The position numbers and the translations under genes are program-made. A stretch of 54,939 bases of DNA from a virus (Duplodnaviria; Caudoviricetes), in IMG/VR virus record IMGVR_UViG_3300043184_000041, positions 1 through 54,939 of that record. One strand, 5' to 3'. A model generated the notes under the pieces. That model ran no database searches, was not told where the DNA came from, and saw nothing but the letters and a program-made list of their open reading frames with translations. Within the stretch, counting starts at the first letter, position 1, and every line of letters begins with the position of its first letter. Below, in pieces: positions 1-54,939 of the stretch.

Positions 1-148
1 CCAGCGGCAGATGGCCGTGCTCCCCTGCGCAATGGTCATGTCCTCCCAAGGCGTGCGTCTCAAGCAAGAACAGATCGACTTCAACAGCCCCGATTCCTTA
101 GTGACCCAACTGAGACGTAAGTACCTCTCTGAAAAGAAATCAGCAGAG
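1..148. repeat. Terminal redundancy / circular overlap with 54792-54939
   Basis: Bases 1-148 equal 54792-54939 except C127 vs T54918 (CTC/CTT, Leu). The polymerase ORF reads through the junction in frame. Confidence 0.97.
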
Positions 149-1585
149 ACCTACGCCACCGCCGTCTGCCCCGAAGCAGCAGGCCCCGACTTCAACTGCC
201 AATCCGGCCAACAACTCGCCAAGGTCTACTACAGCGAAGACGGCTTCTGTCTGCCGATCCTCACCAAGACCAAGAAGGGCGCAGGTCTACCCACCGACAA
301 CAAGTCCGCGCAACTTCTGTTGCGCTACGCGATGGCCCGCAACGCCGGCGACGAAGAACTGGCCCTCTCCTACCTCGGTCCCGACGCCCTTGACATCACC
401 CAGCGCAACTACTCCCCCCGTTCCCGCCTGCATCGCCTTTCTTCCAGAAAACTAACGGCGGCCCTCGGTTTCCTGCGCCGTGTCGTCACCTACGAACAGA
501 AGGACGGCTTCCCCGAAGATAACATCGGGTACAAGTCCTATGGCACCGGCGTGACCTACGCCCTCGGCTACCTAGCGTCGGCCATCCCCGCCGGCGAGCG
601 CTACGCCTCACGCTCTTGGCGCACCGCCCCCGAACAACGCTGGCCCGCCGACAAACCCCTCTACCTGTTCCCCAGCTTCAACGCGGTGGGGATCACCCTG
701 ACCCGCTTCTCGTCCCGCGACCCCAACGGGCAGAACGTCAGCAAGAAGCCGGAAATCCCCCTGCGTAAGCTGTTCGGCCCCGCCCCCGGCCGCGTGTGGG
801 CCTGCATCGACTACAGCCAGCTCGAACTACGCTTGTTCGCCGCCGCCTCTCAGGACGCCGCCCTACTCCGCTCGTTCCGCGAAGGGTATGACTTCCACAC
901 CTTTACAGCCTGCGGCATGTATGGCTACAATCTGTCCAACCACCTAGAAATCCCTTCGCACTTACGCCGTGTCGCGAAGAACGTGAACTTCGGCATTGTG
1001 TACGGCGCAGGCCCCAACAAGATCGCCCAGACGAGCGGCGACCCCGAAGCCTACAACAAGTACAGCAAGCAGTTCCCCGGCGCACGGGCCTACATGGACG
1101 GCGTCATTGCCGGCGTGCAACGCACCGGTTCAATCCACACCCTGTTTGGCTACGAACTCCGCGTTCACCCCGAGCCTGCCTACAAAGGCGTCAACTACGT
1201 CGTCCAAGGCACCGCCGGCGAACTCGTCAAGCGGGCCATGACAAGCCTCTACTTCGACGCCGACAGCCCCCTGGATTGGAACGACTGCCGCCTCGTGCTC
1301 AACGTCCACGACGAACTCGTCTTCGACCTGCTGGACAACGCGACCTACCTAGCGCAAGTCCTTCCCGTGCTCCAACAAAAAATGGCCGCCGTGGGTCAAA
1401 CCATCAACACCGACACCCCCGTGGACGCTAAGCTCTGCCGCGTGTCCTGGGCGGAAGGAGAATCGCCATGCCTCACGACCATTCCCGCGACCGACGCCGC
1501 CGCCAGTTCCTCGAACCCCTCAGCACAGCGCTCAAGCCCAAAACGATCAAGACAGAAATCGACCCGGTTCTCCACGTCCGCGTGA
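1..1585 (+). CDS. polA: Family A DNA polymerase, C-terminal polymerase part (continues from 54004 across the junction)
   Basis: Motif A IDYSQLELR, motif B RRVAKNVNFGIVYG (Phe at the 762-equivalent), motif C NVHDELV, plus TRFSSRDPNGQN and NYVVQGTA. Confidence 0.95.
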   Translation, partial: QRQMAVLPCAMVMSSQGVRLKQEQIDFNSPDSLVTQLRRKYLSEKKSAETYATAVCPEAAGPDFNCQSGQQLAKVYYSEDGFCLPILTKTKKGAGLPTDNKSAQLLLRYAMARNAGDEELALSYLGPDALDITQRNYSPRSRLHRLSSRKLTAALGFLRRVVTYEQKDGFPEDNIGYKSYGTGVTYALGYLASAIPAGERYASRSWRTAPEQRWPADKPLYLFPSFNAVGITLTRFSSRDPNGQNVSKKPEIPLRKLFGPAPGRVWACIDYSQLELRLFAAASQDAALLRSFREGYDFHTFTACGMYGYNLSNHLEIPSHLRRVAKNVNFGIVYGAGPNKIAQTSGDPEAYNKYSKQFPGARAYMDGVIAGVQRTGSIHTLFGYELRVHPEPAYKGVNYVVQGTAGELVKRAMTSLYFDADSPLDWNDCRLVLNVHDELVFDLLDNATYLAQVLPVLQQKMAAVGQTINTDTPVDAKLCRVSWAEGESPCLTTIPATDAAASSSNPSAQRSSPKRSRQKSTRFSTSA

Positions 1586-1701
1586 TGCAACTGCTCGACG
1601 ACAAGTCTTGGAACAAGGACCGCATCAGTCTCGCCGCTCTGCTCCGCAAGCTGCTAGAACGCGAAGCCCTCGAATACGAAAAACACAAGGGAATCAAATG
1701 A
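1468..1701 (+). CDS. Small ribbon-helix-helix-like DNA-binding protein
   Basis: Strong SD (GGAAGGAG). Pattern TIKTEID-helix-ISLAALLRKLLERE. ATGA overlap with the primase gene; overlaps the pol 3' end by 118 nt. Confidence 0.6.
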   Translation: MPHDHSRDRRRRQFLEPLSTALKPKTIKTEIDPVLHVRVMQLLDDKSWNKDRISLAALLRKLLEREALEYEKHKGIK

Positions 1702-3860
1702 GCACGACTGCCACCGCCAAGTCCAAGACCAAGACGCCCGAACAAGTCCTGTCGATCTTCGCGTTTCATGGCGTCAACGTAGACCCCAAGAACCCGGTCC
1801 GCTCCAACGGGCACGCGGTGGCCGACTGCCCCTTCTGCGAGAAGCCGGGCCACTTCTACATCCGCGTCGAAGGCGAAAGCGAGAAGGGCAGTCCTGGCTC
1901 TTGGGACTGCAAGCGCTGCGGCAAGAAGGGCAACGTCTACACGTTCCTGCACTCCCTCTACGCGCAGTGCTGCGCCACCACCAAGCCCGACCAGCTCGTC
2001 GCCCTGCGTGACCACCGCAACACACGCACCCACTCCGTCGGCGCAGGCGTCCCCGCGTCTGCCTACGAAGAACTCGCTTGGAACCCCCTGACGGGCCGCT
2101 GGCTTATCCCGATCACCAACACCGAGGGGGCGATCTCCAACCTGCTGAGCTACGACCCGGCAGCCGCCAAGCCCTTTGCTTGCCCCACCCCCAACCTGAA
2201 CCTGCACCCCTGGAACAGCCGGGCGCTCGGCCCCAACCAGCAAGAGCGGTGCGACGAAATCCTCGTCTGCGAAGGCGTGTGGGACGCCCTGTCGCTCCAG
2301 TGGCTGCTGTCCCGCGTCCCCGTGTCCCGCGACGCCAAGGAATACGCCGTGGTCGGCCTGTGCGGGGCCCAGAACACCCCCGACAGCTTCCTGCAAGCCC
2401 TTGCCGGCAAGCCGGTCACGTTCTTCTTCGACCACGACGAAGCGGGCGACACGGGGCTCAGGAAGGCCCTGGACGGCCTACGCAAGCTGAACCAGTCCTA
2501 CCCTGTCCGCGCCGTGACGTGGCCCGAGAGCTACGCCCAAGGCTACGACGTGGCCGACTACGTCTCGCAGACCAACCAGAAGGCGTTCATCGCTTGGCGT
2601 GACCTGTACGACCTGACCGAAGCCACCACCGTCGGCGCAGCCCTGGCGTCCCGCGAATCAACCCCCTTGCCCCGTCTCAACCGCACCAGCTTCAACGCCG
2701 TCCAGGGTGACTTCACCAAGACGGGCGTCGAGATGACGGACAAGATGCGGGAAGGGCTCGCCATCGCCTGCGCCACCGTGCTGTCCAAGGAAATCCCCGG
2801 CGACCCCCTCTGGATGTTCCTGATCGGCCCCAGCGGCAGCGGCAAGTCCCTGGTCCTGGAAACCCTAACCGAATCGGAAGACCACGTCGTCTACGAAACG
2901 TCGATGACATCCCGCTCTTTCCTTTCCGGCTTCGCTTGCGGCGACGACGACCCGTCCATCCTGGCCCGCGTCACCGACCCCCCAAAGTGTCTCGTCCTGA
3001 AGGACTACACCACCGTCATCACCCTACCGGCGCAAGAACTCGAAACGCTCTACGGCCTGATGCGCGACGCCTACGACGGCCGCGTGGAACGCACCTTTGG
3101 CAACAACGTGACCCGCTCCTACCGGGGTTACTTTTCAGTAGTGGCGGGGGTGACGCCCGAAATCCACACGCTAGGCCACAGCCACCTAGGAGAACGCTTC
3201 CTGAAGTACGAACTAGCCGGCAAGACGAACCTAGCGTCCGACAAGGCCATCATGGCCGCCTTGCGTTCCGGCATGGACGCTGCGCAAGACCGTGAGGGCA
3301 AGCGTCACCGCCAAGCCGCAGTCTGCTCGTTCGTGACCCACCTAATCGAAAACTTCGACGCCATCCCCACCATTCCCGAAGCGTCCCTGGCCCGCATCAT
3401 CGCGCTGGCCAAGGTAGTGGCCATGTCCCGTTCCCGCGTGTCCCGCGACGAGCACGGCGTGGCGAAGTACGAAGGGAGCGCCGAAGCCCCGACCCGCGTC
3501 GCCAAGCAACTCGCCAAGCTGGCTCAGTCCCTGACCATCGTGTTCGGGGAAGAGACCGTCGGCAAGCGCGCTCTAGACATCTGCGCCAAGGTGGCTTGGG
3601 ACACCAGCTACGGCATCAAGCGAGACGCCCTACAAGCCCTTGCCGACGCCGAGGGGGGACTGACCATCGAGGGCCTTGGCGAAGCCCTGGACATCCCCAT
3701 GTCCCCCGCCTACCGCACGCTCCGCGACCTACGCGACCTGTCCCTGGCCACCCGCCGCAAAATCCCCCGCGCCAAGAACAAGCGTGGCCAGCCCATGTAC
3801 CAATACAGCCTGTCCCCCGTCGTCGAAGAAATCTTCCGCGTCGCCGAACTCCCCGACTGA
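1698..3860 (+). CDS. Primase-helicase (Zn finger, TOPRIM, P-loop ATPase, C-terminal wHTH)
   Basis: CPFC...CKRC; TOPRIM VCEGVWDA and FDHDEAG; Walker A GPSGSGKS. Start placed at ATG 1698 with SD AAGGGA. Confidence 0.88.
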   Translation: MSTTATAKSKTKTPEQVLSIFAFHGVNVDPKNPVRSNGHAVADCPFCEKPGHFYIRVEGESEKGSPGSWDCKRCGKKGNVYTFLHSLYAQCCATTKPDQLVALRDHRNTRTHSVGAGVPASAYEELAWNPLTGRWLIPITNTEGAISNLLSYDPAAAKPFACPTPNLNLHPWNSRALGPNQQERCDEILVCEGVWDALSLQWLLSRVPVSRDAKEYAVVGLCGAQNTPDSFLQALAGKPVTFFFDHDEAGDTGLRKALDGLRKLNQSYPVRAVTWPESYAQGYDVADYVSQTNQKAFIAWRDLYDLTEATTVGAALASRESTPLPRLNRTSFNAVQGDFTKTGVEMTDKMREGLAIACATVLSKEIPGDPLWMFLIGPSGSGKSLVLETLTESEDHVVYETSMTSRSFLSGFACGDDDPSILARVTDPPKCLVLKDYTTVITLPAQELETLYGLMRDAYDGRVERTFGNNVTRSYRGYFSVVAGVTPEIHTLGHSHLGERFLKYELAGKTNLASDKAIMAALRSGMDAAQDREGKRHRQAAVCSFVTHLIENFDAIPTIPEASLARIIALAKVVAMSRSRVSRDEHGVAKYEGSAEAPTRVAKQLAKLAQSLTIVFGEETVGKRALDICAKVAWDTSYGIKRDALQALADAEGGLTIEGLGEALDIPMSPAYRTLRDLRDLSLATRRKIPRAKNKRGQPMYQYSLSPVVEEIFRVAELPD

Positions 3861-3961
3861 GCGGAGCAAACCATGCGCAAGAACGACTCCCCCCACGTCT
3901 ACGCTATGGCCCTTTTGCGGCTGACCCCCAACCCTTTTCTTTCAGAAAAACCGGAGTGGGC

Positions 3962-4542: not shown

Positions 4543-4917
4543 ATGAGCAAGCTTGACCAACTCTTACGTCTTCTTGCGATGATCGACGAGACGCCGACCG
4601 CAGCGACGAGCCCTACCGACGCCCGCATCGGAAAGCCGGTGATCGTCCGCAGCCGCGACGCCGGTGTGATCTTCGGCGAGTTCCTCGGCCGCGACGGGGA
4701 TTGCGTCATGCTCCGCGACGCGAGGCAACTGTGGTCGTGGAAGGCCGCACAAGGCGGGACGCTGATCGACGTTGCCCGCTACGGCGCGAGCGACGGGAAG
4801 TTTTCCGGGGCGTCATGCGGCTCGGTCGAGGTGGTCAACGCCTGCACGGTGATCGAGTGCAGCGATGAGGCCGCTGCGAATCTGCGTGGCCGCGACAGCA
4901 AGGGGGCGTGGAAATGA
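4543..4917 (+). CDS. Conserved phage protein, DUF6948-like
   Basis: IGKPVIVRSRDAGVIFG...ARQLWSW pattern; SD AAGGA. Family assignment is from memory. Confidence 0.65.
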   Translation: MSKLDQLLRLLAMIDETPTAATSPTDARIGKPVIVRSRDAGVIFGEFLGRDGDCVMLRDARQLWSWKAAQGGTLIDVARYGASDGKFSGASCGSVEVVNACTVIECSDEAAANLRGRDSKGAWK

Positions 4918-5210
4918 TCGCGACCATTAGCTACGACTCCGGCTACGGCTACGGCAACGGTTCCGGATACGGATACGGATACGGTGACGGCTCCGGTTCC
5001 GGCGACGGCGACGGCGACGGTGACGGCTCCGGTTCCGGCGACGGCGACGGCGACGGCTCCGGTTCCGGCTACGGCAACGGTTCCGGATACGGATACGGAT
5101 ACGGATACGGCTCCGGCTCCGGTTCCGGCTACGGCGACGGTTCCGGATACGGATACGGATACGGATACGACTCCGGCTACGGCTACGGCGACGGTGACGG
5201 TTCCGGCTGA
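4914..5210 (+). CDS. Gly-rich (GY/GD/GS)n repeat protein
   Basis: ATGA-coupled to the upstream gene; about 90 aa of Gly-X dipeptides encoded by 6-bp repeats. Confidence 0.7.
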   Translation: MIATISYDSGYGYGNGSGYGYGYGDGSGSGDGDGDGDGSGSGDGDGDGSGSGYGNGSGYGYGYGYGSGSGSGYGDGSGYGYGYGYDSGYGYGDGDGSG

Positions 5211-5385
5211 CCTAACCCGCACAGCGAACCGCGGGGTCCCAGATTGACCGCGGGGCTGTAACCGGCGGCACAACACGGACGGCAGTCGCACCAGCGCTGT
5301 CATCACCACCGACCACCCCGCCGACATCGGGAAGTTCTAGGGTCCGCTGCCGCCACCACCAACCACCACACGCAAAGGAATCGCT

Positions 5386-8903: not shown

Positions 8904-8909
8904 CGAAGT

Positions 8910-8981
8910 GGCCCCATAGTTTAATGGTTATGACGGCTGATTTTCAGTCAGCAGATCGGGGTTCGATTCCCCGTGGGGCTA
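8910..8981 (+). tRNA. tRNA-Glu (anticodon TTC), no encoded CCA
   Basis: Acceptor GGCCCCA/TGGGGCT, D-loop AATGG, anticodon arm GCTGA-TTTTCAG-TCAGC, T arm CGGGG-TTCGATT-CCCCG. Confidence 0.88.
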
Positions 8982-9022
8982 ATCTCTCTCTCTCTCTCAG
9001 CACAACCAAGGAAGGAACCACG

Positions 9023-9415
9023 ATGCTCTGCCTACACCGCAAGCCCGAAGAAGCCGTCATCATCCGCAACGAGCGGACCAAGGAAGAACTGAAAGTGCTC
9101 GTCACCGGCGTGAAGGGGCACAGCGTTTACTTAGGCTTGGAGGGCCCTGACCATTACAACTTCATCCGCGACGAGCTGCTCACGGGGGTCGCTATGTCAC
9201 GCAAGCAAATCAGCGAAACCCTCCGCCCCTACATCATCAACGACCCCCACCAAGGGGCCTACTTGCATGACCGCGACGCGGCCTCACTGCTCCCGCCTGA
9301 ACTCGTCAAGACGATGATTCGCTCGGGCATGTGGAAAGGCCCCAAGCCCCACACGGTCCACGTCCGTCGGCTCGTCCAAGCCATGTCCCGTTACACTGCC
9401 CCCACCCCCGCCTGA
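9023..9415 (+). CDS. csrA: CsrA/RsmA-like protein with about 70-aa C-terminal extension
   Basis: MLCLHRKPEEAVII...VLVTGVKGHSVYLGLEGP...IRDEL matches the CsrA pattern MLxLxRxxxExxxI...VxLGxxAP...IxRxE; SD AAGGAAGGA. Confidence 0.8.
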   Translation: MLCLHRKPEEAVIIRNERTKEELKVLVTGVKGHSVYLGLEGPDHYNFIRDELLTGVAMSRKQISETLRPYIINDPHQGAYLHDRDAASLLPPELVKTMIRSGMWKGPKPHTVHVRRLVQAMSRYTAPTPA

Positions 9416-9952: not shown

Positions 9953-9968
9953 TTTCTTTTCAGAGAAA
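9953..9968 (+). repeat. Dispersed motif A, TTTCTTTTCAGAGAAA (representative copy)
   Basis: Exact 15-16-mer copies at 9953, 16665 (reverse), 23382, 30967, 36795, 44946 and 54647. Variants at 125 (reverse), 438, 3935, 16874 (reverse), 28420, 46205, 50923 and 51875; weaker ones at 27234, 33696 and 41721. Confidence 0.92.
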
Positions 9969-10199: not shown

Positions 10200-10201
10200 C
10201 C

Positions 10202-10214
10202 GAATACTTTTCAG
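10202..10214 (+). repeat. Dispersed motif B, GAATACTTTTC(AG) (representative copy)
   Basis: Copies at 9927 (reverse), 10202, 17139, 18781, 20090 (reverse), 23320 and 38681; all intergenic. Confidence 0.88.
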
Positions 10215-10313
10215 CGAACCACAGAGGGCGAGACTGCGTCTCTAAGTCTAGCCCTAGCCGTGACACGGCTGCCCAACCTTGGTAGGCTGGAACTGCTGGT
10301 AGGCAGCTATGCG

Positions 10314-11346: not shown

Positions 11347-11397
11347 TCTCTTCCGCAACAACCAACAACCAACAACCAACAAACCCCCGAGTTTACC

Positions 11398-16630: not shown

Positions 16631-16695
16631 TAAAGCCGAAGGCTAGTAACCTTTCCCCTTCTCATTTCTCTGAAAAGAAATCCCCAGGAGTAACC

Positions 16696-16863
16696 ATGAA
16701 GCGTGAAGCAGTGACTGTGCGGATGCCCAAGCTGACCTACGACTTGCTGAAACAAGCGGCCGAGGAAGACGGCAGGTCCATGAACGAGTATTGCGTCAGG
16801 GCCATCAAGGCGGCGGCTGTCAGGACTATGGAGAAGAAGAAAAAGGGTGAGAGCCCTTCCTGA
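16696..16863 (+). CDS. Arc/HicB-like ribbon-helix-helix repressor (55 aa; not in the ORF track)
   Basis: MKREAVTVRMPKLTYDLLKQAAEEDGRSMNEYCVRAIK; SD AGGAG; flanked on both sides by motif A. Confidence 0.85.
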   Translation: MKREAVTVRMPKLTYDLLKQAAEEDGRSMNEYCVRAIKAAAVRTMEKKKKGESPS

Positions 16864-16910
16864 AGCCCCGCCATTTCTCTGAAAGAAAACAACCACCAAC
16901 AGGACGCGCG

Positions 16911-17135: not shown

Positions 17136-17168
17136 GTAGAATACTTTTCACCAAACAGGGAGTGGAAG

Positions 17169-18719: not shown

Positions 18720-18807
18720 AACAGCCTGATAGGCTACAGTAGAGGCGCAGGGCCCAAGGACGGGCCCTTCTTCTACATCGGAATACTTTTCAGCCAAACA
18801 GGGTGGT

Positions 18808-20021: not shown

Positions 20022-20100
20022 ATAGAGAGTAGGAGAGATAGGAAAGACAGAGAAGGGGAGAAGCGGTTGCTTTCCCCCTCTGTTGGAATCTGAAAAGTAT

Positions 20101-20231
20101 TCCGGCGCGTCCGCCGGCCCTGCGGGATCGTGCTACTCCGGCGCGTCCGCCGGCCCTGCGGGATCGTGCTACTCCGGCGCGTCCGCCGGCCCTGCGGGAT
20201 CGTGCTACTCCGGCGCGTCCGCCGGCCCTGC
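20101..20231 (+). repeat. 36-bp tandem repeat, about 3.6 copies (TCCGGCGCGTCCGCCGGCCCTGCGGGATCGTGCTAC)
   Basis: Identical units at 20101, 20137, 20173 and a partial one at 20209; no spacers. Confidence 0.95.
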
Positions 20232-23319: not shown

Positions 23320-23507
23320 GAATACTTTTCAGCTACGCACAGAGGATGCCCCAATCTTCCCCGCCCCCTGTCCCCACGACCTTTCTTTTCAGAGAAATGG
23401 GGGCGGGGCACGGGTAAGTCCACCCCCAGTATGATCGCTGCGCTGTCGATATAGCCCATCACGCCTTCGTTCTTGAACCTCAATCTCTCAAACCCTAGGG
23501 TATCTGC

Positions 23508-28411: not shown

Positions 28412-28451
28412 GCCCAATCTTTCTTTTCAGCAAAGCAGAGAGGGAAAGACC

Positions 28452-30960: not shown

Positions 30961-30998
30961 CCAGCATTTCTTTTCAGAGAACTAGAGAGGGCGGCCCG

Positions 30999-36779: not shown

Positions 36780-36828
36780 CCCCGCCGCACAGCCTTTCTT
36801 TTCAGAGAAATCAGCAGGGCCTAAGCAA

Positions 36829-38680: not shown

Positions 38681-38714
38681 GAATACTTTTCGGTCACGCA
38701 CAGAGGAATAAGCC

Positions 38715-44940: not shown

Positions 44941-44977
44941 CAGCCTTTCTTTTCAGAGAACTAGGGAGGGGAAGGGC

Positions 44978-45220
44978 ATGGCAAGGCGTCTCAAGAACCG
45001 TTGGGGCAAGCTGAGCGAACTTGACGGCAGGGCACGCATCGGCAGCCCGATCTACCAGGGCTACCCCAAGCGGCTCAAACAGCTCAGCGCTTGGCGGGCG
45101 ATGCACAAGGTAGCCGGCAGCCACATGCCCGTCCGCATGGCCGGCACCAGGGCCCAGACACGCCCCAGCAGCAACCTACCGCTGCCCGCCAAAGAAGCCT
45201 TCGTCAAGAAACGGGTCTGA
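44978..45220 (+). CDS. Small basic hypothetical protein
   Basis: G-rich SD directly after motif A. Confidence 0.5.
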   Translation: MARRLKNRWGKLSELDGRARIGSPIYQGYPKRLKQLSAWRAMHKVAGSHMPVRMAGTRAQTRPSSNLPLPAKEAFVKKRV

Positions 45221-45222
45221 GC

Positions 45223-48177
45223 ATGTACCGCCTCGGCATTGAAACGGCTTCGGGGGTCGAAGAACGCTCCCTGATCCGTCCTAGCGCTGACGACCCCAAG
45301 ATTGCCAACACGGCCATCCTGCGCGCCGGCTTCGAGCCCAGCGAGTGGTGGATGCTGGTAGACGGTCGCACCTACAAGCGGATGGTGCTGTCGTCCAACA
45401 AGCATTACCTGACGCTCCCCCTTGTCGCCGGCCCCGGTCTCAAGCAGGTCTACCCCAACGGACCCAACGACCTGCCGGCGATCATCACCTACCAGAACCT
45501 CGTCTTCGTCGGCGCGTCGTCTATCGACGAGTCCGGCAAGAACGGCTTCCAATCCCTCTCCGAATCGCTAGCGGTCAACGACGCGCAGAAAATCCTGCTG
45601 AAGATGTCCGACCTACGGCACGTCTTCAAGACACAGACAACCGTCAACAAGTCTTACAACCTGCTCGAACGAGTAGAGTACGACTCGGCCGCCGACACCC
45701 AAGCCCTTCGCTTCTACGAACACTCCACCAACAGCGGCACACGCTGGACTTGGCAGACGGTTCTCGACGACTTAGTAAGCCTACTTCCCGACGCCTACAC
45801 ACTCGTCGGCGGTAGTGTCACCCCTCTCGACACAACACACTTCGCGCAAGCCCCCGTCGAGCCCGAAGAAGGGGAAGGGACAGCAGGGGGCGTCAACAAG
45901 GACCAGCTCTGGCGGGGGCCCATCAACCTACGCTTCTACGGCGTCAGCGTGTGGGAAGCCATCTGCCAAGTGCTCCACGCCACCGGCAACACCATCTGCC
46001 CCAAGGAAGACGGCACCTTCCTGGTCGTTCCTTGCGGAGCCGCCACCAACCACGCCAACCCCAAGACGCTCACCGAAGTTCTCAACGGCGACTCCGACCG
46101 CTTTCCCGGTTCAGACACCGACGCGGGAAAGATTGCCGCATCCGCCCGCCTGCTGTCCGCCATCAACCGCCGCCGCTCCTACCCCGTCCCCGAGAAGTAC
46201 GTCGTTTTCTTCCAGAGAACTCGGCCGCAGGTCGGGGGCAGCAGCGACCCTAAATCCCCCCAAGAGATACACGACAAGGGGCCCTACTCTGTCGAGATAA
46301 CGACCAGCGAACGGCTGATCGATCTTGACTCGCGCGGCATCTCCCTGATCCCTTACGCATCCGTCCGCACGGGGACTAAGCAGCCCCTCCACGCGACAGG
46401 CTTTGCTTGGTGGCGGGCCTACGAAAGCGGCTTCACCAACAAGGGGGACACGCTCGCTCAAGAACTGGCCGAAGAACTGGTTGACCGCAAGCTCCAAGCC
46501 GAGCTAGGGGACCAGTTCAGCGTCGAGCTAGCGATGTTCCCTCCCTACTTCGCCGACGTAGACTTTCCACGCATCGACCTCGACTTCGGCCGTCGTCCCC
46601 GCACCGTCTTTCACGGCACGCACAACCCCTACCAGACGCTCGACGACTACCGCCCCGCTCAAGACGAACTAGTCAACTGGCTGGTGGAACTCCCCGAAGC
46701 CCGTTGGGCGATGGTGGAGTCATCGAGCAGCGTCGCCAAGTACGCTGTAGGCACCGGCCCCGCCGTCTACCGCAACCGTGGTGACGCAGAAGGCGCATCG
46801 TGGCAGTCACTAGGAACCATCTCGTTCCTCAACGCCACCGAAGAAACCATTGGGGTCGGCAAACGCTTCCGGGTGGACTACGACTACTGGTCCGACATCT
46901 GGGTAGCGGCAGCAGCCCCGGCAAGCTCGAACGACGCTGGTGGCGGCGGTGGGGGTGAAGACCACCCACACTTCGTTGCAGTCGCCTACGAAGCCGCCGA
47001 CCCGACCGACCCCTACATCACGATCAACTCGTTTGTTCGTGAGTACATCGGGATGGACCCGCTCGGTGCTCCCCCCGTCGTCGTAGGCAACCCGCACGGC
47101 CTGAAAGTCCCTGAAGGGGTTGGCATCCTCTGCACCCCTTGGAACCAACCGGCCATCCTCGACTGGGCCCCGTCAACCGCGTACACAGCAGGCGATAAGC
47201 GGAAAGCCGACCGCTCCGACATCGCCGGCACCCTGGTAGAAATCTACACCAGCAACAGCAGCCGCACGTCCTTCGCCGGCACGTTCAACGCGAGCGAAGC
47301 GGCCAACTGGACCAAGATTGGCGCCTACGAAGCCGACGCCGCTTGGAAAGCGGTGATGGTGGAAGGGAGTGGCGACCACCTGTTAATCGCCAAGGTGACA
47401 TCTGGCTTTGTCAGCCTGACATCGAGTTTCGGCGTTGACGACGTGAGCGTGCTGGTAGGCCCCCCCTTAGCCGTGGGGGTGACCGACGCCCTCGACAACG
47501 GCTTCGCCCCCGAGATCGACGACCTAGTCTTCCTCAAGCCGACGGGCATCCCCGACGAGTGGAAGATCGTCTACGTCATCACGGCGTCGAACGGTTCCGA
47601 CAACACCAAAGTTGTTCGCATCAAGTCGAACACGATGTCGAGCGTATCAGCGGGCGACGACGCACTGAGCGTAGCCACCATCAGCGGCGTCGGAAAAGTA
47701 TTCAAGGCCGACCTGTTGACGTGGAGCGGCACGGCGTGGAGCGTCGGCGCCGAAGTCCGCGTCTTGCTCTCTCCCGCCAAAGCAGGATCGACTCCCAAAG
47801 CCAATCATCACCAAGTCCTGCTGAGCCAGTTCATCGGGGTACGCACCGAATCGAGTGTTGACTACGACCTGTACGCAGCGGGTGAATCGGGCGCTAGTGG
47901 GGCGGTCACTCCCTGCTGGATCACCACGGGGGCGGCCAAGGCGACCACCTCGGGCACCACGATTACCTGCACAACGGCAACCGTGTACCTCGACACGATT
48001 GGGTCAAGCGACGCCCAGCGCGTACCCGCGTCCGCAGGAGAGACGGCTTACTGGGACGACCCCGCATCGGCCATCCAGATTGCTTCCGGCAAAGCACGCC
48101 GGGGCTACGTCGTCCGTACGTCACTCGGCACGCTCGACATCCTTTGGGTCGGCTGCAAGGAATACACCTGGAGCTAG
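45223..48177 (+). CDS. Large tail tip/hub-like virion protein
   Basis: About 984 aa; TWQTVLDDL...NLRFYGVSVWEAICQVL hub-like segment; WAPSTAYTAGD module. Confidence 0.55.
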   Translation: MYRLGIETASGVEERSLIRPSADDPKIANTAILRAGFEPSEWWMLVDGRTYKRMVLSSNKHYLTLPLVAGPGLKQVYPNGPNDLPAIITYQNLVFVGASSIDESGKNGFQSLSESLAVNDAQKILLKMSDLRHVFKTQTTVNKSYNLLERVEYDSAADTQALRFYEHSTNSGTRWTWQTVLDDLVSLLPDAYTLVGGSVTPLDTTHFAQAPVEPEEGEGTAGGVNKDQLWRGPINLRFYGVSVWEAICQVLHATGNTICPKEDGTFLVVPCGAATNHANPKTLTEVLNGDSDRFPGSDTDAGKIAASARLLSAINRRRSYPVPEKYVVFFQRTRPQVGGSSDPKSPQEIHDKGPYSVEITTSERLIDLDSRGISLIPYASVRTGTKQPLHATGFAWWRAYESGFTNKGDTLAQELAEELVDRKLQAELGDQFSVELAMFPPYFADVDFPRIDLDFGRRPRTVFHGTHNPYQTLDDYRPAQDELVNWLVELPEARWAMVESSSSVAKYAVGTGPAVYRNRGDAEGASWQSLGTISFLNATEETIGVGKRFRVDYDYWSDIWVAAAAPASSNDAGGGGGGEDHPHFVAVAYEAADPTDPYITINSFVREYIGMDPLGAPPVVVGNPHGLKVPEGVGILCTPWNQPAILDWAPSTAYTAGDKRKADRSDIAGTLVEIYTSNSSRTSFAGTFNASEAANWTKIGAYEADAAWKAVMVEGSGDHLLIAKVTSGFVSLTSSFGVDDVSVLVGPPLAVGVTDALDNGFAPEIDDLVFLKPTGIPDEWKIVYVITASNGSDNTKVVRIKSNTMSSVSAGDDALSVATISGVGKVFKADLLTWSGTAWSVGAEVRVLLSPAKAGSTPKANHHQVLLSQFIGVRTESSVDYDLYAAGESGASGAVTPCWITTGAAKATTSGTTITCTTATVYLDTIGSSDAQRVPASAGETAYWDDPASAIQIASGKARRGYVVRTSLGTLDILWVGCKEYTWS

Positions 48178-50063: not shown

Positions 50064-50561
50064 ATGAAACCAGCACGCAAGACATTCCTGTACGTCTTTT
50101 GCCACCTGCTGGCCCGCAACGAACTGTTGTATAGCAGCGGCAAGAAGCCGATGACGGACGAAATCCTGCTCATCGAACTGAGCAACTTCGACTTCGGCCG
50201 CAAGGTCCGCCGCGTCGAACAACTGATCGACCCCCAATCGGTCAACGTGACCATCGCCAAGCTGCGTGGCCAGTTCAACCGGGGGGAACTCCACCAGGGA
50301 AGCACAACCACCCCTCCAAACTTTTTCTCGTTCCGCTACTCGGAAGAAGGAAAAAGATTAGGGGCCCGTGGAATCCTCTTGTCACCCGAAGAACAGAACG
50401 ATATGATCGCCCGCTTCCAGTCCCACCGAGACAAGTGGCACCGCAAACGTCTCGACCGAGCCAAGGGGGAAGCGTGCGAACCAAAGTTCCTGCTAAGATC
50501 GCCCCGATCGTCCGTGATTGGGCCAAGTGCCAGCGATGCCCACTCTGCCGGGACCGGATGA
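50064..50561 (+). CDS. Hypothetical protein
   Basis: ORF; codon usage. Confidence 0.55.
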   Translation: MKPARKTFLYVFCHLLARNELLYSSGKKPMTDEILLIELSNFDFGRKVRRVEQLIDPQSVNVTIAKLRGQFNRGELHQGSTTTPPNFFSFRYSEEGKRLGARGILLSPEEQNDMIARFQSHRDKWHRKRLDRAKGEACEPKFLLRSPRSSVIGPSASDAHSAGTG

Positions 50562-51055
50562 AGGTCGTCCAGTATCGTGGAGCCGACAAGCCCGAAATAC
50601 TTTTCGTGGGAGAGGCCCCCGGAAAGACCGAGAACATCCTGGGCGTCCCCTTCATCGGTCCTTCCGGCCAGCTCGTCGAACTGCTGATCGAAGAAGCCGC
50701 CGCCGACCTAGCCGGCAGACTCCGCTACGGCTTCATCAACGTCTTGGGCTGTGTCCCCTACGCCGACCGCGACAACAAAGCATCCGGCGGCGTCCGCCCC
50801 CCGTCACCCCAAGAAGTGGCCGCCTGTTCACCACGTCTTGAAGCCCTGTTCGCCGCCTTCCAGCCCCGTGGCGTCGTCTTCCTCGGCAAGACGGCAGCCG
50901 CCCAACGGAAGCACCTCGGCTCTTTTCTTCCAGAGAAAGTGCTGGAGCTACAGCACCCTGCTTACGTCTTAAGGAACGGCGGCAGGATGTCTGTCCCCGG
51001 CGCTACGTTCGTCTGCAATCTCTCGACTTGGCTCAAGGACTTGCGCAATGGCTAA
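50474..51055 (+). CDS. Family 4 uracil-DNA glycosylase-like protein
   Basis: CQRCPLC, FVGEAPG, GVPFIGPSG, HPAY. GTG start assumed. Confidence 0.88.
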   Translation: MRTKVPAKIAPIVRDWAKCQRCPLCRDRMKVVQYRGADKPEILFVGEAPGKTENILGVPFIGPSGQLVELLIEEAAADLAGRLRYGFINVLGCVPYADRDNKASGGVRPPSPQEVAACSPRLEALFAAFQPRGVVFLGKTAAAQRKHLGSFLPEKVLELQHPAYVLRNGGRMSVPGATFVCNLSTWLKDLRNG

Positions 51056-52034
51056 GAAGAAAGCCGTCCGTCGAGCGGCCCGCAAACTGCTCTGGACCCC
51101 CGCGATGGGCCTGACCGTTTCGGCCATGAAGCTCTGGAGCACCTGCCGCGAGCAGTTCGCCCTCAAGTACATCGACGGCTGGGCATCCCGCAAGGCGTCG
51201 GTCCCCATTGTCTACGGCAGTCTCTGGCACCTAGCGCAAGAACACCAAGGCACGTCTACCCCCTGGAAAGGGATTGACGCCTACCTGAAGGACTTCAAGA
51301 AGAACGGCGACAGCCACGCCATCCGCGACGTGGAGTTCATGATCGCCCAGATTAAGACCCTCTTCCCGCTCTACGCCGCGCACTACAAGACTCAAGACAG
51401 CTCCATCAAATGGACCCGCCGAGAAGCCGTCTTCCTGCAACCCTTGCGTGTGCTCGGCGAACAACTCCCTATTGCCGGCCGACGTGACGGCGAGTTCCGC
51501 ACCGCCAAGGGCACCCTCGGCCTCTTCGAGACAAAGACCAAGAGCAACATCGACCGCAAGGCTATCGCCGACCTACTCCGCTCCGACCTGCAAACACTCG
51601 TCTACTGCTGGTCCATGTGGAGGGAGTACAACGAAGCACCCGGCCTGATCCTCTACAACGTCGTCAAACGGCCCTCTCTCCGACAGACCCAAGGCGAGAC
51701 CCAACAAGCCTACCTGATCCGGCTGGCCAACGACTGCCGCCGCAAGCCCGACAACTACTTCCTTCGGTGGCAAGTCCAGATCACCAAGGACGACATGGCC
51801 CGCTTCGAGACCGAACAACTGGTTCCCATCTGCCAAGCCTTCCTGACTTGGTGGCGGGAGGTCCATCGAGCCCCTTTTCTTCCAGAAAGAAGCGACGGCC
51901 GCCACCCGTCTCACTTCACAAACTTGCCCGCATTGGTGACGCCCTACGGCAAGGCCGACCTGTACGACTTAATCGTGTTAGGGTTACGGGCCCCCTACTT
52001 CCAGCGTTCCTCAGCCCACAGCGAGTTAGTATAG
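51048..52034 (+). CDS. PD-(D/E)XK exonuclease (RecB/Cas4-like)
   Basis: SAMKLWSTC, GSLWH, GRRDG, FETKT, QTLVY. Confidence 0.82.
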   Translation: MAKKKAVRRAARKLLWTPAMGLTVSAMKLWSTCREQFALKYIDGWASRKASVPIVYGSLWHLAQEHQGTSTPWKGIDAYLKDFKKNGDSHAIRDVEFMIAQIKTLFPLYAAHYKTQDSSIKWTRREAVFLQPLRVLGEQLPIAGRRDGEFRTAKGTLGLFETKTKSNIDRKAIADLLRSDLQTLVYCWSMWREYNEAPGLILYNVVKRPSLRQTQGETQQAYLIRLANDCRRKPDNYFLRWQVQITKDDMARFETEQLVPICQAFLTWWREVHRAPFLPERSDGRHPSHFTNLPALVTPYGKADLYDLIVLGLRAPYFQRSSAHSELV

Positions 52035-52120: not shown

Positions 52121-53026
52121 ATGCCCACTCCCGTCAAGCTGTCGCTCCCGACGAAGTTCATCGAGCCCCACGAGTTCTTCTTCATGCAGCCTGTCTGCAT
52201 CTACGGCCGGAAGGGCATCGGCAAGACAACCGCCGCAATGGCCATTCAGTGGATGCTCGACGACCACTACGGCAAGGGGAAGAAGACGGTCCTGAACTTC
52301 CGCTTCGAGCCCGGCCGTCGCAACCTCCGCATCCTGCAAGTCCCCACCGAGACGAACCGCCGTCTCACCTGGGCCACGTTCAAGGACTACCTGGAACTCT
52401 TCTGCGAAGACGACAACCGCGTTGTGGCCGTGATCGACTCTATCGACAAGGCTTACGACGCTTGCTTCGAGCACGTCTGCGCAAAGCACAACGTCGATCA
52501 CCCCAAGGACGCCAAGCGTGACGCGCCGGCTATCTGGGACGCCATCAAGATCGAATTCGAGACCGTCTTCCAGGCCCTCAACGAGTGTGGCAAGTCCTTC
52601 GTGGCCCTCTCCCACGAAAAGATCAAGACCGAAGAGATGGCCGACGGCACCGAGTACGAACGCTTCGACTTGTCCTGCAAGCCGGCCGCCGCCAAGGTGG
52701 TCAAGGACATGTGCGAGTTCGTGATCTACTACGGCTACTCGGGCGTGCCGGAAGAGAAGGCCAAGGGAGCCCAACGCACCATGACCATCCGCAACCATGA
52801 CAACGTCGTGGAATGCGCCTGCGGTCGGGACGACGTGTTCCTGCAACCCGACGGCGAACCCCTCTTCCAGTTCGCTGTTCCCCACGACCCAATGGAAGTC
52901 GGCAAGGCCCTCCAGGCGGCGTACAACAACGAGCTGTACGACTTCAACCGCGACCTGGACGCCGAAGCAGCAGCAGCCGCCGCACGCAAGCGACAGGCCG
53001 CCAAGAAGACTGCCAAGGCCAAGTAG
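52121..53026 (+). CDS. AAA_24/Sak4-like ATPase (recombination)
   Basis: IYGRKGIGKTT, AVIDSID, VALSHEK; lies between the nuclease and SSB-like genes. Confidence 0.8.
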   Translation: MPTPVKLSLPTKFIEPHEFFFMQPVCIYGRKGIGKTTAAMAIQWMLDDHYGKGKKTVLNFRFEPGRRNLRILQVPTETNRRLTWATFKDYLELFCEDDNRVVAVIDSIDKAYDACFEHVCAKHNVDHPKDAKRDAPAIWDAIKIEFETVFQALNECGKSFVALSHEKIKTEEMADGTEYERFDLSCKPAAAKVVKDMCEFVIYYGYSGVPEEKAKGAQRTMTIRNHDNVVECACGRDDVFLQPDGEPLFQFAVPHDPMEVGKALQAAYNNELYDFNRDLDAEAAAAAARKRQAAKKTAKAK

Positions 53027-53892: not shown

Positions 53893-53955
53893 CGGACCCG
53901 CAAGGGGCCGTTGAGGGAACCCCGGACGGTGGTTTGACAGCGCCGCCGTCCGGGG
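53893..53955 (+). other. Two GC-rich hairpins upstream of the polymerase gene
   Basis: CGGACCC-GCAA-GGGGCCG and CCCCGGACGGTGG...CGCCGCCGTCCGGGG. Confidence 0.5.
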
Positions 53956-54003
53956 AACCCATCCTGACAACCCAGCTAATCACCAAATCCAAGGACGGTT
54001 ACG

Positions 54004-54939
54004 GTGTACATCTCCGTTGACACAGAGACGACGGGGCTGCATATCCGCCACGGTTGCCGGCCGTTCTTCGTGTCAACCTGGGCAGAGGGGGGAAGGGGGC
54101 AGGCTATCGGCCAACCCTGGTCCAAGGGCTTACCGGGAACCAGCAAGAACTGGTCCTGGTTCATCAACCCTAAGACCAGACTCCCTTCCCCCCGAAGCCT
54201 ACTCTTTCAACAAGCCCTAGACTCTCTAGCGGCTTACCTGGAAGGCCACTCCCTGGTCTTCTTCAACACCCCCTTCGACTTACTGGCCCTCGCCTCGGTG
54301 GGCCTGTACTTCGACTTCGCCTCGGTGGGCGGCAAGCCCTGGTCATCGACCACGCTCTACGACTGCGCCCGCCCCGGCTACCGCCGCACCCTCTGTGCGC
54401 CTCTGCACCGCGTCCAGTGCGACGAGCTGCACGACGTAGCCGTTCTGGCCCACGCCCGTGACAACAAGCGTCCCAAGCCCCCTGCGGGCCTCAAGGACTG
54501 CGCCACCTACTACCTGATGATTCCCAGCGACGACGAGAAGCTGCTCCACCAACACACGCTCCAGGCCCGCCAACAAGCCGCCCGAGACGGCTACCCCACC
54601 GCCATCAACCCCCAGGGCAAATCCGAAGTAGCCGCCGACTTCAATCTTTCTTTTCAGAGAAATGGAGAGGCCCTAGAAAAGTACGCCTCTCTCGACGCTT
54701 ACCGCACGCTGGCCCTGTTCGCCATGCTGCGCGAGATGACCCCCAAGGGCATCAAGGGCGCATCGACCAAGGACAAGAACTGGCAAGGCTACCAGCGGCA
54801 GATGGCCGTGCTCCCCTGCGCAATGGTCATGTCCTCCCAAGGCGTGCGTCTCAAGCAAGAACAGATCGACTTCAACAGCCCCGATTCCTTAGTGACCCAA
54901 CTGAGACGTAAGTACCTTTCTGAAAAGAAATCAGCAGAG
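54004..54939 (+). CDS. polA: Family A DNA polymerase, N-terminal 3'-5' exonuclease part (not in the ORF track; about 790 aa in total)
   Basis: Hand translation from GTG 54004: ExoI VDTETTGL, ExoII FFNTPFDL, ExoIII YASLD. Open into the MAVLPCAM at 54802, which equals position 11. Confidence 0.92.
   Translation, partial: MYISVDTETTGLHIRHGCRPFFVSTWAEGGRGQAIGQPWSKGLPGTSKNWSWFINPKTRLPSPRSLLFQQALDSLAAYLEGHSLVFFNTPFDLLALASVGLYFDFASVGGKPWSSTTLYDCARPGYRRTLCAPLHRVQCDELHDVAVLAHARDNKRPKPPAGLKDCATYYLMIPSDDEKLLHQHTLQARQQAARDGYPTAINPQGKSEVAADFNLSFQRNGEALEKYASLDAYRTLALFAMLREMTPKGIKGASTKDKNWQGYQRQMAVLPCAMVMSSQGVRLKQEQIDFNSPDSLVTQLRRKYLSEKKSAE

What the first reader, a model, noticed from the sequence alone, without database searches (positions are those of the whole stretch)
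125..54662. Genome-wide dispersed 16-bp site (TTTCT-TTTCAG-AGAAA), quasi-regularly spaced and retained inside genes
Seen: exact TTTCTTTTCAGAGAA at 9953, 16665 (reverse), 23382, 30967, 36795, 44946 and 54647, with gaps of about 6.7, 6.7, 7.6, 5.8, 8.2, 9.7 and 10.1 kb. Variants at 50923, 51875, 438 and 3935 fill the two long gaps. Other variants lie at 125 (reverse), 16874 (reverse), 28420 and 46205. The site is very AT-rich for this genome, mostly co-oriented, and has TTTCT/AGAAA inverted arms around an asymmetric 6-bp core, often followed by a G-rich tail. Copies in polA, UDG, the nuclease and a tail gene use A/T-rich codons that are otherwise uncommon here (e.g. CTT TCT TTT CAG AGA AAT), which suggests selection on the DNA itself. 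Inference: a genome-wide protein-binding system. Candidates are a stoperator-like network (as in mycobacteriophage L5), programmed nick sites (as in T5 or phiKMV), staged-ejection or packaging/organisation signals, or sites that decoy a host regulator.
Basis: partly seen in the sequence, partly recalled or inferred. Interest (0 to 1): 0.85.

Follow-up and report, generated by a model that had tools for sequence, protein, structure and literature searches.

The report
Dispersed oriented start-associated phage motif
An uncultivated 55-kb phage carries about fifteen copies of one AT-rich 16-base signal, mostly pointing the same way and sitting just ahead of gene starts; related phages have their own versions, so it is a real but still unexplained control signal.

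Summary
TTTCTTTTCAGAGAA occurs 7 times exactly (0 expected). A wider family has 14-15 members against 0.04 expected. Nine of 15 copies are intergenic in a genome that is 10% intergenic. Seven lie 25-50 nt before a start codon (P 2.5e-7). Six lie inside genes, against 0.15 in codon-preserving shuffles, and use rare codons. The seven exact copies are evenly spaced (CV 0.19, P about 1e-4).

The window is a circularly overlapping IMG/VR phage record with a 54,791-bp unit. The copies at 124 and 54915 are therefore one site.

Distant syntenic relatives carry their own oriented versions: a pyrimidine run, then CAGA, then a purine run. Some sit at matching module boundaries.

No integrase, sigma factor or phage RNA polymerase was found. 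No raw reads or RNA data were available.

My best reading (0.35) is a phage-specific promoter/leader cassette, with a second class (GAATACTTTTCAG). The rivals are an RNA hairpin operator or processing site, an operator network read by the Arc-like protein, and strand-specific nick or priming sites. The function is unresolved. It is a new variant of the known kind "dispersed phage regulatory repeats".

The parts
9953..9968 (+). class A copy, exact; intergenic, 46 nt before start of the 66-aa gene 9999-10199; a reversed class B fragment lies just upstream at 9927-9937
16665..16680 (-). class A copy, exact, reversed; intergenic, 31 nt before the + strand Arc-like RHH gene
16874..16889 (-). class A variant (2 mismatches), reversed; intergenic, 10 nt after the RHH stop and 37 nt before gene 16911-17135; a terminator-like hairpin (16861-16840) follows on the minus strand
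23382..23397 (+). class A copy, exact; intergenic, 126 nt before the 483-aa gene 23508-24959; relative G001 has a copy about 126 nt before the orthologous gene
28420..28435 (+). hybrid of class A and class B (3 mismatches); 32 nt before gene 28452-29243
30967..30982 (+). class A copy (exact 15-mer); 6 nt after a stop codon, 32 nt before gene 30999-31226
36795..36810 (+). class A copy, exact; 34 nt before the Mu gp36-like gene 36829-37317
44946..44961 (+). class A copy (exact 15-mer); 5 nt after the stop of the Mu-type portal-family gene, 32 nt before gene 44978-45220
54647..54662 (+). class A copy, exact, inside polA (codon 215 of 790), written in rare codons
124..139 (-). class A variant, reversed, inside polA (codon 304); the same site as 54915-54930 in the terminal overlap, with one base different
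438..453 (+). class A variant inside polA (codon 409)
3935..3950 (+). class A variant; intergenic, after the primase-helicase gene
46205..46220 (+). class A variant inside the 984-aa baseplate-hub-like gene
50923..50938 (+). class A variant inside the UDG gene, 125 nt before the nuclease gene start
51875..51890 (+). class A variant inside the PD-(D/E)XK nuclease gene, 246 nt before the AAA_24 gene start
10202..10215 (+). class B copy (GAATACTTTTCAGC), directly after a stop codon and a GC hairpin (z -2.7)
17139..17152 (+). class B copy after a hairpin, before the HNH gene 17169-17558
18781..18794 (+). class B copy before the TerS-like gene 18808-19485
20089..20102 (-). class B copy 139 nt after the stop of the minus-strand TerL; three tandem GC hairpins precede it and a 15-bp hairpin with a U-rich tail follows; no ORF downstream
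23320..23333 (+). class B copy, 62 nt upstream of the class A copy at 23382
38681..38694 (+). class B copy before gene 38715-39305; G001 has its own class B before the orthologous gene
16696..16863 (+). Arc/TacA-like ribbon-helix-helix gene bracketed by the two reversed copies (candidate reader; not found in relatives)
9023..9415 (+). CsrA-like RNA-binding protein (candidate RNA-level regulator; present in 3 of 4 near-complete genomes of the clade)

Best explanation
Class A (TTTCTTTTCAGAGAAAT plus a G-rich tail) is a directional gene-expression punctuation signal of this phage clade. Most likely it is a phage-specific promoter/leader cassette.

In this reading, host RNA polymerase is redirected by a phage factor that has not been identified. 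It starts in or just after CAGAGAA. The transcript then opens with a short purine-rich leader that already holds the Shine-Dalgarno sequence, about 16-18 nt before the ATG. The copies re-start or boost transcription roughly every 6-8 kb along a genome whose genes almost all point one way. Class B (GAATACTTTTCAG, usually after a GC hairpin) is a second class of the same kind of signal.

Shown: enrichment, orientation, position next to ribosome-binding sites, selection inside genes, and analogues in relatives. Inferred: that transcription starts there, and that a phage factor reads it.
For: (1) Nine of 15 copies are intergenic where 10% of the genome is (P 3e-6). Seven of 15 lie 25-50 nt before a + strand start (P 2.5e-7). 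The usual layout is stop, 5-15 nt, motif, 4-6 nt, SD, ATG.

(2) Orientation follows the gene strand: 11:3 in G000, 13:2 in G001, 10:0 in G003, 9:0 in G004, with expected counts of 0.02-0.35 per strand.

(3) Exact copies repel each other (CV 0.19, P 3e-4 against random gene starts). The same holds in G003 (P 0.004) and weakly in G001 (P 0.058). This is what one signal per transcription unit would give.

(4) Synteny with G001. A class A copy lies about 122-126 nt before the orthologous 483-aa gene in both phages. A copy follows the portal-family gene in both. Class B precedes the orthologous 196-aa gene in both. Class A in G000 corresponds to class B in G001 before the gp36-like gene. The two classes therefore look interchangeable.

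(5) The unit stands on its own. Reversed copies keep the T at +17 and the G-rich tail although no gene uses it. The orphan copies 16889(-) and 20102(-) are followed on their own strand by terminator-like hairpins, and 16680(-) by a weak one.

(6) Canonical TTGACA/TAnAAT-like sites cluster in the gene-poor 10.2-14.1 kb stretch. This leaves room for separate, phage-specific later promoters.

(7) The core is invariant in a pair of relatives that are 94% identical: 0 changes in 162 core positions at 18 sites.
Against: Class A has no -35 or -10 resemblance to a sigma-70 promoter.

No Sigma70_r2 match in 0 of 5 records, and only sub-threshold r4_2 matches. No phage RNA polymerase appeared in any Pfam or PHROGs scan.

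None of the 22 proteins shared with relatives is an obvious regulator.

Some intragenic copies lie 1.3-2 kb from the next start.

Two reversed copies sit where a forward copy would be expected, before + strand genes.

The arms covary as a hairpin in G001, which a promoter does not need.

There are no transcript data at all.
Confidence: 0.35

Rival explanations
1. RNA-level element. In the sense transcript the motif folds into a small hairpin: a pyrimidine 5' arm, a UYCA-type loop and a purine 3' arm. It sits just 5' of the ribosome-binding site. It would serve as a processing or stability site, or as a translational operator for many cistrons. The reader would be a host factor (S1, RNase E or similar) or a phage RNA-binding protein.
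For: In 15 G001 copies the arms pair more than their composition predicts: 75.5% against 70.3 +/- 2.0 (3 of 500 shuffles), double changes 11 against 4.6 (0 of 500), and all slid registers at or below 64%. The G000 hairpin UUUCUU/GAGAAA is predicted in 6 of 11 contexts. Arm spacing differs between lineages (loops of 3, 4 and 5-6 nt), which suits a hairpin better than a dimeric DNA site. The copies are in sense orientation and next to the SD. No phage-specific reader is needed, which fits conservation across records of 40-62% GC. A CsrA-family RNA binder is encoded in 3 of 4 near-complete genomes.
Against: The hairpin signal is weak in G003: 65.7% against 62.7 +/- 2.3 (80 of 500). A pyrimidine arm facing a purine arm pairs 3 times in 4 by composition alone. 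Folding z-scores of the G000 contexts are unremarkable, from -2.6 to +1.7. Reversed copies before + genes and their retained G tails are left unexplained. The sense loop lacks the GGA that CsrA proteins bind (recalled), and G001 has the motif but no CsrA.
Confidence: 0.25
2. A network of double-stranded DNA operators, stoperator-like. A phage DNA-binding protein would sit on the copies and modulate transcription through or from them. The Arc-like RHH protein is the obvious candidate in this genome.
For: The RHH gene (Pfam TacA1/Arc) is bracketed by the only two intergenic reversed copies. The TTTCT and AGAAA arms are 11 bp apart centre to centre. That is one helical turn, the geometry I recall for Arc tetramers. 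The copies lie in short intergenic gaps and mostly in one orientation, as recalled for L5 stoperators. PMC3203893 mentions these as 13-bp sites acting in transcription regulation.
Against: No RHH homologue in the 4 relatives that keep the motif (the query is short, so sensitivity is low). No integrase in 0 of 5 records, so there is no sign of lysogeny. Arm spacing varies between and within genomes. The strong strand bias and the conserved asymmetric core and tail are not needed by a symmetric dimer. Covariation of the arms is not expected for a protein reading bases.
Confidence: 0.15
3. Strand-specific DNA events. The copies would be programmed nick sites of the kind known in T5, phiKMV-like and tf/LUZ24-like phages. 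Alternatively they would be preferred priming, entry or packaging landmarks laid down at intervals along one strand.
For: The shared features are a short consensus almost confined to one strand, positions partly shared with relatives, and a consensus that drifts between relatives. These are the properties reported for tf and its relatives (PMC3517423, passages read). Copies are kept inside genes at the cost of rare codons. Spacing is even in G000 and G003. polA carries 2-3 copies in both G000 and G001, at non-homologous codons. An HNH endonuclease is encoded here, with a homologue in G001.
Against: Three of 14 copies are on the other strand, whereas all tf sites are on one strand. The tight link to ribosome-binding sites and the exchange with class B at orthologous positions have no reason under this model. 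No read-end data could be obtained: both runs are kept as contigs only.
Confidence: 0.15
4. Chance, low-complexity sequence or an assembly/adapter artefact.
For: Logan contigs of the source run break or mis-join at the copies (joints and loose ends), as any repeat longer than the assembler's word length would cause.
Against: 0 expected against 7 exact copies. Depth is even across the laid stretch in the source run. The copies are embedded in frame in real genes. Independent IMG/VR records have their own versions.
Confidence: 0.01

Closest known systems
Start-Associated Sequences (SAS) and extended SAS of Cluster K mycobacteriophages (PMC3203893; passages read)
   Same: A short asymmetric repeat in 11-19 copies per genome. 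Nearly all copies are in one orientation with rare reversed ones, just upstream of start codons, often in otherwise tight gene junctions. It is conserved across subclusters in front of different genes, absent as a repeat from host genomes, and of unknown function. ESAS adds inverted repeats with a variable spacer.
   Different: SAS lies 3-7 bp from the start codon and contains the AGGAG Shine-Dalgarno core. Here the motif ends 16-18 nt before the ATG and the SD is a separate G-rich tail. SAS is confined to the non-structural half; these copies span all modules. Six of these copies are inside genes. The sequence is unrelated, and AT-rich in a 62% GC genome.
Stoperators of mycobacteriophage L5 / Cluster A (recalled; mentioned in PMC3203893)
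   Same: Many dispersed copies of an asymmetric site of about 13-16 bp, in short intergenic gaps, oriented with transcription.
   Different: Stoperators are read by the prophage repressor of a temperate phage. Here no integrase was found. The only candidate reader (RHH) is not conserved in relatives. Copies also occur deep inside genes.
Localized single-strand interruption (nick) consensus sites of tf/LUZ24-like, phiKMV-like and T5-like phages (PMC3517423; passages read)
   Same: Some 4-14 copies of a short consensus on one strand, similar positions in related phages, and a consensus that co-evolves between relatives.
   Different: Those consensus sequences (for example 5'-TACT/RTGMC-3') are unrelated, and every copy lies on one strand. 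Physical nicks are not shown here. A link to ribosome-binding sites is not reported in the passages I read.
Phage-specific middle/late promoter sets (general knowledge, recalled)
   Same: A conserved 15-25 bp element unlike host promoters, co-oriented with genes, at module boundaries, in more than one class.
   Different: No cognate sigma factor, activator or phage RNA polymerase could be identified here. No transcription start data exist.

Membership tests
L5-type stoperator network | Many dispersed copies of one asymmetric site, far above chance | tested here: met
   7 exact copies against 0 expected; the family has 14 against 0.04
L5-type stoperator network | Sites in short intergenic gaps, in one orientation relative to transcription | tested here: inconclusive
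   9 of 15 copies are intergenic and 11 of 14 are co-oriented. Both intergenic reversed copies precede + strand genes, and 6 copies are intragenic
L5-type stoperator network | Temperate phage whose repressor binds the sites | tested here: not met
   No Phage_integrase match in 0 of 5 records. The RHH candidate is absent from 4 relatives. Binding itself cannot be tested with these tools
Start-Associated Sequences (Cluster K) | Repeat lies 3-7 bp from the start codon and contains the SD core | tested here: not met
   The motif ends 16-18 nt before the ATG and the SD is a separate G-rich tail. Definition from PMC3203893
Start-Associated Sequences (Cluster K) | One orientation, associated with gene starts, conserved among related phages | tested here: met
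   7 of 15 copies lie 25-50 nt before starts (P 2.5e-7). There are oriented analogues in G001, G003, G004 and L217
Localized nick sites (T5, phiKMV, tf types) | All consensus copies on one DNA strand | tested here: not met
   11 forward and 3 reverse in G000, 13:2 in G001; met in G003 (10:0) and G004 (9:0)
Localized nick sites (T5, phiKMV, tf types) | A physical, ligase-repairable nick at the site in virion DNA | not testable with these tools
   Only assembled contigs were available for the two runs, so there is no read-end information
Sigma-70-type bacterial promoter | -35 and -10 hexamers at 16-18 bp spacing | tested here: not met
   The consensus scan flags no class A copy. It flags one class B copy, through TAGAAT at 17137-17142. 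The region upstream of class A is C-rich with no conserved hexamer
CsrA/RsmA binding site | GGA in the loop of a short hairpin in the sense RNA (feature recalled) | tested here: not met
   The sense loop is UUCA or UCCA. GGA appears only on the complementary strand of the G001 and G003 versions, and not at all in the G000 motif
Intrinsic terminator | GC-rich hairpin followed at once by a U run | tested here: not met
   Class A has no preceding GC hairpin. Class B follows predicted hairpins in 8 of 10 copies, but its T run is only 4 long

The most novel reading that the evidence does not exclude
A previously unseen phage clade lays down a strand-specific hairpin 'milestone' (pyrimidine run, CAGA, purine run) every few kilobases. 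It is kept even inside essential genes at the cost of rare codons. It programmes a physical or processive event, not ordinary initiation. Examples would be site-specific nicking or priming of one DNA strand, or re-arming of elongating RNA polymerase.
Probability: 0.2. Interest if true: 0.8.

Novelty: new variant of a known kind. Interest (0 to 1): 0.6.

Why it matters
Dispersed, oriented repeats are among the few handles on how uncultivated phages organise expression, replication or packaging. The known examples (stoperators, SAS/ESAS, nick sites) are mostly still not understood mechanistically.

This case has three useful properties. The motif recurs, in diverged form, in distantly related syntenic records with G+C from 40 to 62%. 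It is kept inside genes against codon preference. It is evenly spaced.

Together these give a compact set of sites, two motif classes and two candidate readers (an Arc-like and a CsrA-like protein). A single 5'-end mapping or native-DNA experiment could sort them out.

If the signal proves to be a nick, priming or elongation 'milestone', it would define a new genome-organising principle. If it is a promoter set, it would allow operon maps for a clade with no cultured member.

Tried and rejected
Close relatives. Megablast of 15 kb against cultured phages found nothing. tblastn of the 483-aa protein, the capsid protein and the primase-helicase against cultured phages found nothing. The capsid protein found no IMG/VR relative.

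Exact-motif scans. The 18-mer in species-representative genomes gave 69 single hits, mostly in low-GC taxa. So there is no sign of a host repeat or of a prophage relative.

RNA and reads. No RNA holder was listed. Both runs are contigs only, so no read starts, nicks or transcript ends could be seen. The joints and loose ends at the copies are repeat-induced contig breaks. I do not count them as biology.

Rfam and tRNA scans found only tRNA-Glu.

Rejected ideas:
- A phage RNA polymerase. The 873-aa minus-strand gene is TerL with an intein. The 984-aa protein resembles a baseplate hub (low-confidence model).
- A sigma factor.
- CsrA as the universal reader (absent from G001).
- Conserved intragenic position in polA (non-homologous codons in G000 and G001).
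- A replication-direction switch explaining the reversed copies. In G000 the GC skew is near zero at 12-20 kb, but G001 shows no matching change.
- SD sequestration by the pyrimidine arm as a general rule (predicted for 28420 and 44946 and weakly for 30967, not for the other contexts; z-scores mixed).

Full report
WHAT THE WINDOW IS. The window is a whole IMG/VR virus record. Bases 1-148 repeat at 54792-54939 with one mismatch. The unit genome is therefore 54,791 bp, circular or terminally redundant, at 62% G+C. My own simple ORF caller gave 72 genes, all but one on the + strand and about 88-90% coding.

Pfam, PHROGs and Atlas matches give this map:
- polA: 54004 across the junction to 1585
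- Toprim primase-helicase: 1698-3860
- UvrD-type helicase: 6299-7888
- tRNA-Glu: 8909-8982
- a 130-aa CsrA-like protein: 9023-9415
- DNA methylase: 14374-15156
- Arc/TacA-like RHH protein: 16696-16863
- HNH endonuclease: 17169-17558
- macro domain: 17774-18244
- HTH protein: 18312-18719
- TerS-like: 18808-19485
- TerL with a LAGLIDADG intein on the minus strand: 20240-22861
- major capsid: 25911-27146
- Mu gp36-like: 36829-37317
- tape-measure-like: 39410-40885
- Mu-type portal family: 43621-44940
- baseplate-hub-like 984-aa protein: 45223-48177
- UDG: 50558-51055
- PD-(D/E)XK nuclease: 51048-52034
- AAA_24: 52121-53026

There is no match to any cultured phage by DNA or by three proteins. No tyrosine integrase was found, no sigma-70 region 2, only sub-threshold region 4 matches, and no RNA polymerase.

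THE OBSERVATION. The exact 15-mer occurs 7 times, 6 forward and 1 reverse, against 0 in shuffles. The 16-mer with up to 3 mismatches occurs 13 times against 0.18. A family pattern TTYYTYYCAGARA occurs 11 times forward and 3 reverse, against 0.02 per strand under a first-order Markov model. The copies at 124(-) and 54915(-) are one site seen twice in the overlap.

Nine strong copies share more than the 16-mer. T at +17 occurs in 8 of 9. A G-rich run follows, with G at +23 and +24 in 7 and 9 of 9. Upstream there is a C-rich stretch.

Nine of 15 copies are intergenic, where 10% of positions are (P 3e-6). Seven of 15 have their first base 25-50 nt before a + strand start codon (P 2.5e-7). The typical junction reads: stop codon, 5-15 nt, motif, 4-6 nt, G-rich Shine-Dalgarno, ATG.

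Six copies are inside genes: three in polA and one each in UDG, the nuclease and the tail hub. They sit in different codon phases. Three hundred shuffles that preserve protein sequence and per-gene codon usage give a mean of 0.15 and at most 2 intragenic hits. The exact copy in polA is spelled with codons that make up 9, 9, 15, 55, 3 and 8% of their amino acids' codons.

The seven exact copies are more evenly spaced than random points or random gene starts (CV 0.19; P about 1e-4 and 3e-4). The full family is not (P 0.14).

A SECOND CLASS. GAATACTTTTCAG(C) occurs at 10202, 17139, 18781, 23320, 38681 and 20102(-). There are weaker copies, and 28420 is a hybrid of the two classes. It shares CTTTTCAG with class A. 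A predicted hairpin, mostly GC-rich, precedes it in 8 of 10 copies (two contexts tested, z -2.7 and -2.2). In five copies an AGAGG-type SD and a start codon follow about 20 nt later. One copy lies 139 nt beyond the stop of the minus-strand TerL, on the minus strand. No ORF follows it. It sits between three tandem GC hairpins and a 15-bp hairpin with a U-rich tail.

RELATIVES. Profile-guided scans of IMG/VR with two structural proteins found distant relatives at 25-41% protein identity: G001 (50.6 kb, 52.5% GC), G002 (17 kb fragment), G003 and G004 (57.6 and 58.3 kb, 40-41% GC), and the partial loci L217, L219, L221, L222 and L224. Twenty-two of the 72 G000 proteins have BLASTP matches in G001, G003 or G004, and in G001 they keep the same order.

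The G000 16-mer itself is not conserved in G001-G004. Several records have their own over-represented, gene-strand-oriented motif of the same design:
- G001: TTTTCTCCAGA(A/G)AA, 13 on the gene strand and 2 opposite, against 0.06-0.09 expected
- G003 and G004: TTCTTCTCCAGAA, 10:0 and 9:0 against about 0.3
- L217: TTCCTCCAGAAGA, 5-6 copies in 13.7 kb
- L224: seven CCCCAGAA copies on the gene strand; enrichment not tested
- L219, L221 and L222: no clear over-represented version in the k-mer tables

The common denominator is a pyrimidine run, then CAGA, then a purine run. G001 also has a second long motif (9 copies) just upstream of start codons, and G003 has another (5 copies).

G003 and G004 are 94% identical overall. 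At 18 sites the 9-nt core shows 0 changes in 162 positions, while the flanks do vary.

Spacing is again even in G003 (CV 0.42, P 0.004) and marginally so in G001 (P 0.058).

Positions are partly shared with G001:
- a class A copy 122-126 nt before the orthologous 483-aa gene
- a copy after the portal-family gene in both
- class B before the orthologous 196-aa gene in both
- class A in G000 where G001 has class B, before the gp36-like gene
- polA holds 2-3 copies in both phages, at non-homologous codons in poorly conserved linkers
- each phage has a reversed copy in the accessory block that holds the methylase and the HNH gene

HAIRPIN OR NOT. The arms can pair. In G000 this is TTTCT/AGAAA around TTTCAG, or six pairs with one G-U. 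In the minor G000 variants it is TTTTCT/AGAAAA around a 3-nt loop. G001 has the same arms around CC, and L217 has TCTTC/GAAGA around CTCCA.

In 15 G001 copies the pairing exceeds what the column composition gives: 75.5% against 70.3 +/- 2.0 (3 of 500 shuffles). Cells changed on both sides number 11 against 4.6 (0 of 500). All slid registers are lower. In 10 G003 copies the excess is weak: 65.7% against 62.7 +/- 2.3 (80 of 500), covariation score reached in 17 of 500. Whole-context folds in G000 are not unusually stable (z from -2.6 to +1.7). The small hairpin appears in 6 of 11 predicted structures.

A real but modest base-pairing constraint is therefore likely. It is not proven for the whole clade.

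WEIGHING MECHANISMS. The signal is tied to gene boundaries and to the sense strand. It is interchangeable with a second class at orthologous junctions. Copies repel each other, as one signal per transcription unit would. The unit is also self-contained: reversed copies keep the +17 T and the G tail though no gene uses them. Orphan copies are followed on their own strand by terminator-like hairpins. The one after 16889(-) is at 16861-16840. The one after the class B copy at 20102(-) was folded. The one after 16680(-) is weak.

I therefore rank a phage-specific promoter/leader cassette first (0.35). Against it stand the lack of any sigma-70-like hexamers, the absence of a recognisable sigma factor or polymerase, and the hairpin covariation.

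An RNA hairpin in the 5' leader, acting as a processing site or translational operator, is second (0.25). It explains the covariation and needs no phage reader. It does not explain the reversed copies. The clade's CsrA-like protein is not a universal reader, since G001 lacks it, and the sense loop lacks GGA.

A DNA operator network read by the Arc-like protein is third (0.15). The bracketing of its gene and the 11-bp arm spacing are attractive. But the protein is not found in the relatives, the arm spacing varies, and nothing points to lysogeny.

Strand-specific nicks or priming sites are level with it (0.15). The family resemblance to the tf, phiKMV and T5 nick consensus systems is real: strand bias, shared positions, drifting consensus (PMC3517423). 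So is the retention inside genes. But 3 of 14 copies are on the other strand, and the link to ribosome-binding sites has no reason under this model. It could not be tested.

An artefact is excluded for practical purposes.

COMPARISON WITH KNOWN SYSTEMS. The closest described phenomenon is the SAS/ESAS repeats of Cluster K mycobacteriophages (PMC3203893). They are oriented, linked to starts, conserved within a clade, rare in hosts and of unknown function. The present motif fails the defining SAS feature: it is not 3-7 bp from the start and does not contain the SD. It is also not confined to one genome half. It fails the stoperator test on lifestyle and the nick-site test on strict strand exclusivity. 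It is best filed as a new variant of 'dispersed oriented phage regulatory repeats', found in an uncultured clade from a freshwater metagenome.

LIMITS. Gene calls are from my own simple caller. Hairpins before class B are minimum-energy predictions. The relatives are few and distant. The two closest relatives were out of reach. No transcript or read-end data exist. Supplementary files of the cited papers were not seen. What I say about Arc geometry, L5 stoperators and CsrA's GGA preference is recalled, not tested here.

Noticed in passing
1-148 and 54792-54939: Terminal overlap of 148 bp at 99% identity. The single mismatch (127 C, 54918 T) falls inside the reversed motif copy in polA. The record is classed 'linear' with 57% completeness, but it looks like a complete circular or terminally redundant 54,791-bp unit.
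   Followed up: partly
20240-22861 (-): TerL is the only minus-strand gene. It carries a Hom_end/LAGLIDADG intein. Its start is 11 nt from the divergent gene at 22873.
   Followed up: partly
9023-9415, after tRNA-Glu(TTC) at 8909-8982: A 130-aa CsrA-family protein with a C-terminal extension. Canonical short CsrA genes lie on the opposite strand in relatives G003 and G004. G001 has none.
   Followed up: partly
20098-20231: Three tandem 36-nt repeats, each a GC hairpin, directly after the TerL stop. A class B copy follows, then a strong hairpin with a U-rich tail. AT-rich palindromes lie at about 19950-20030. This is a convergent-transcription or possibly packaging/end region.
   Followed up: partly
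10200-14100: About 4 kb with no recognisable gene (10 candidate ORFs without Pfam hits). It holds a 27-nt inverted repeat (10884-10955) carrying TTGACA hexamers, and sigma-70-like sites at 10889(-), 10909(+) and 14088(+). It may be an early-promoter or origin region.
   Followed up: partly
4894-5253: A 12-nt periodic repeat (19 overlapping copies) inside ORF 4914-5210, with a weak TrAA12-like Pfam hit.
   Followed up: no
12000-20000 and 20000-22900: GC skew of the + strand is negative everywhere except 12-20 kb, where it is about zero or slightly positive. It does not flip in the minus-strand TerL, whereas AT skew does. GC skew here follows something other than gene orientation.
   Followed up: partly
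39305-39346: An exact 21-nt tandem duplication between gene 38715-39305 and the tape-measure-like gene.
   Followed up: no
window 16500-36490, run X2: A 2025 run of another study holds short contigs roughly 84-94% identical to parts of this stretch (from the pieces listed), so a closer relative exists in public data. One of its contigs begins at about 23379, a few bases before the motif copy at 23382.
   Followed up: partly
G001 (L133-L135): 5068, 11074, 15054, 22821, 28577, 31124 (-) and 42435 (+): Relative G001 has a 28-nt second motif (9 copies), in most copies 20-35 nt before start codons. One copy lies on the + strand 132 nt after the stop of its only long + strand gene. This mirrors the class B copy after TerL in the window.
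   Followed up: partly
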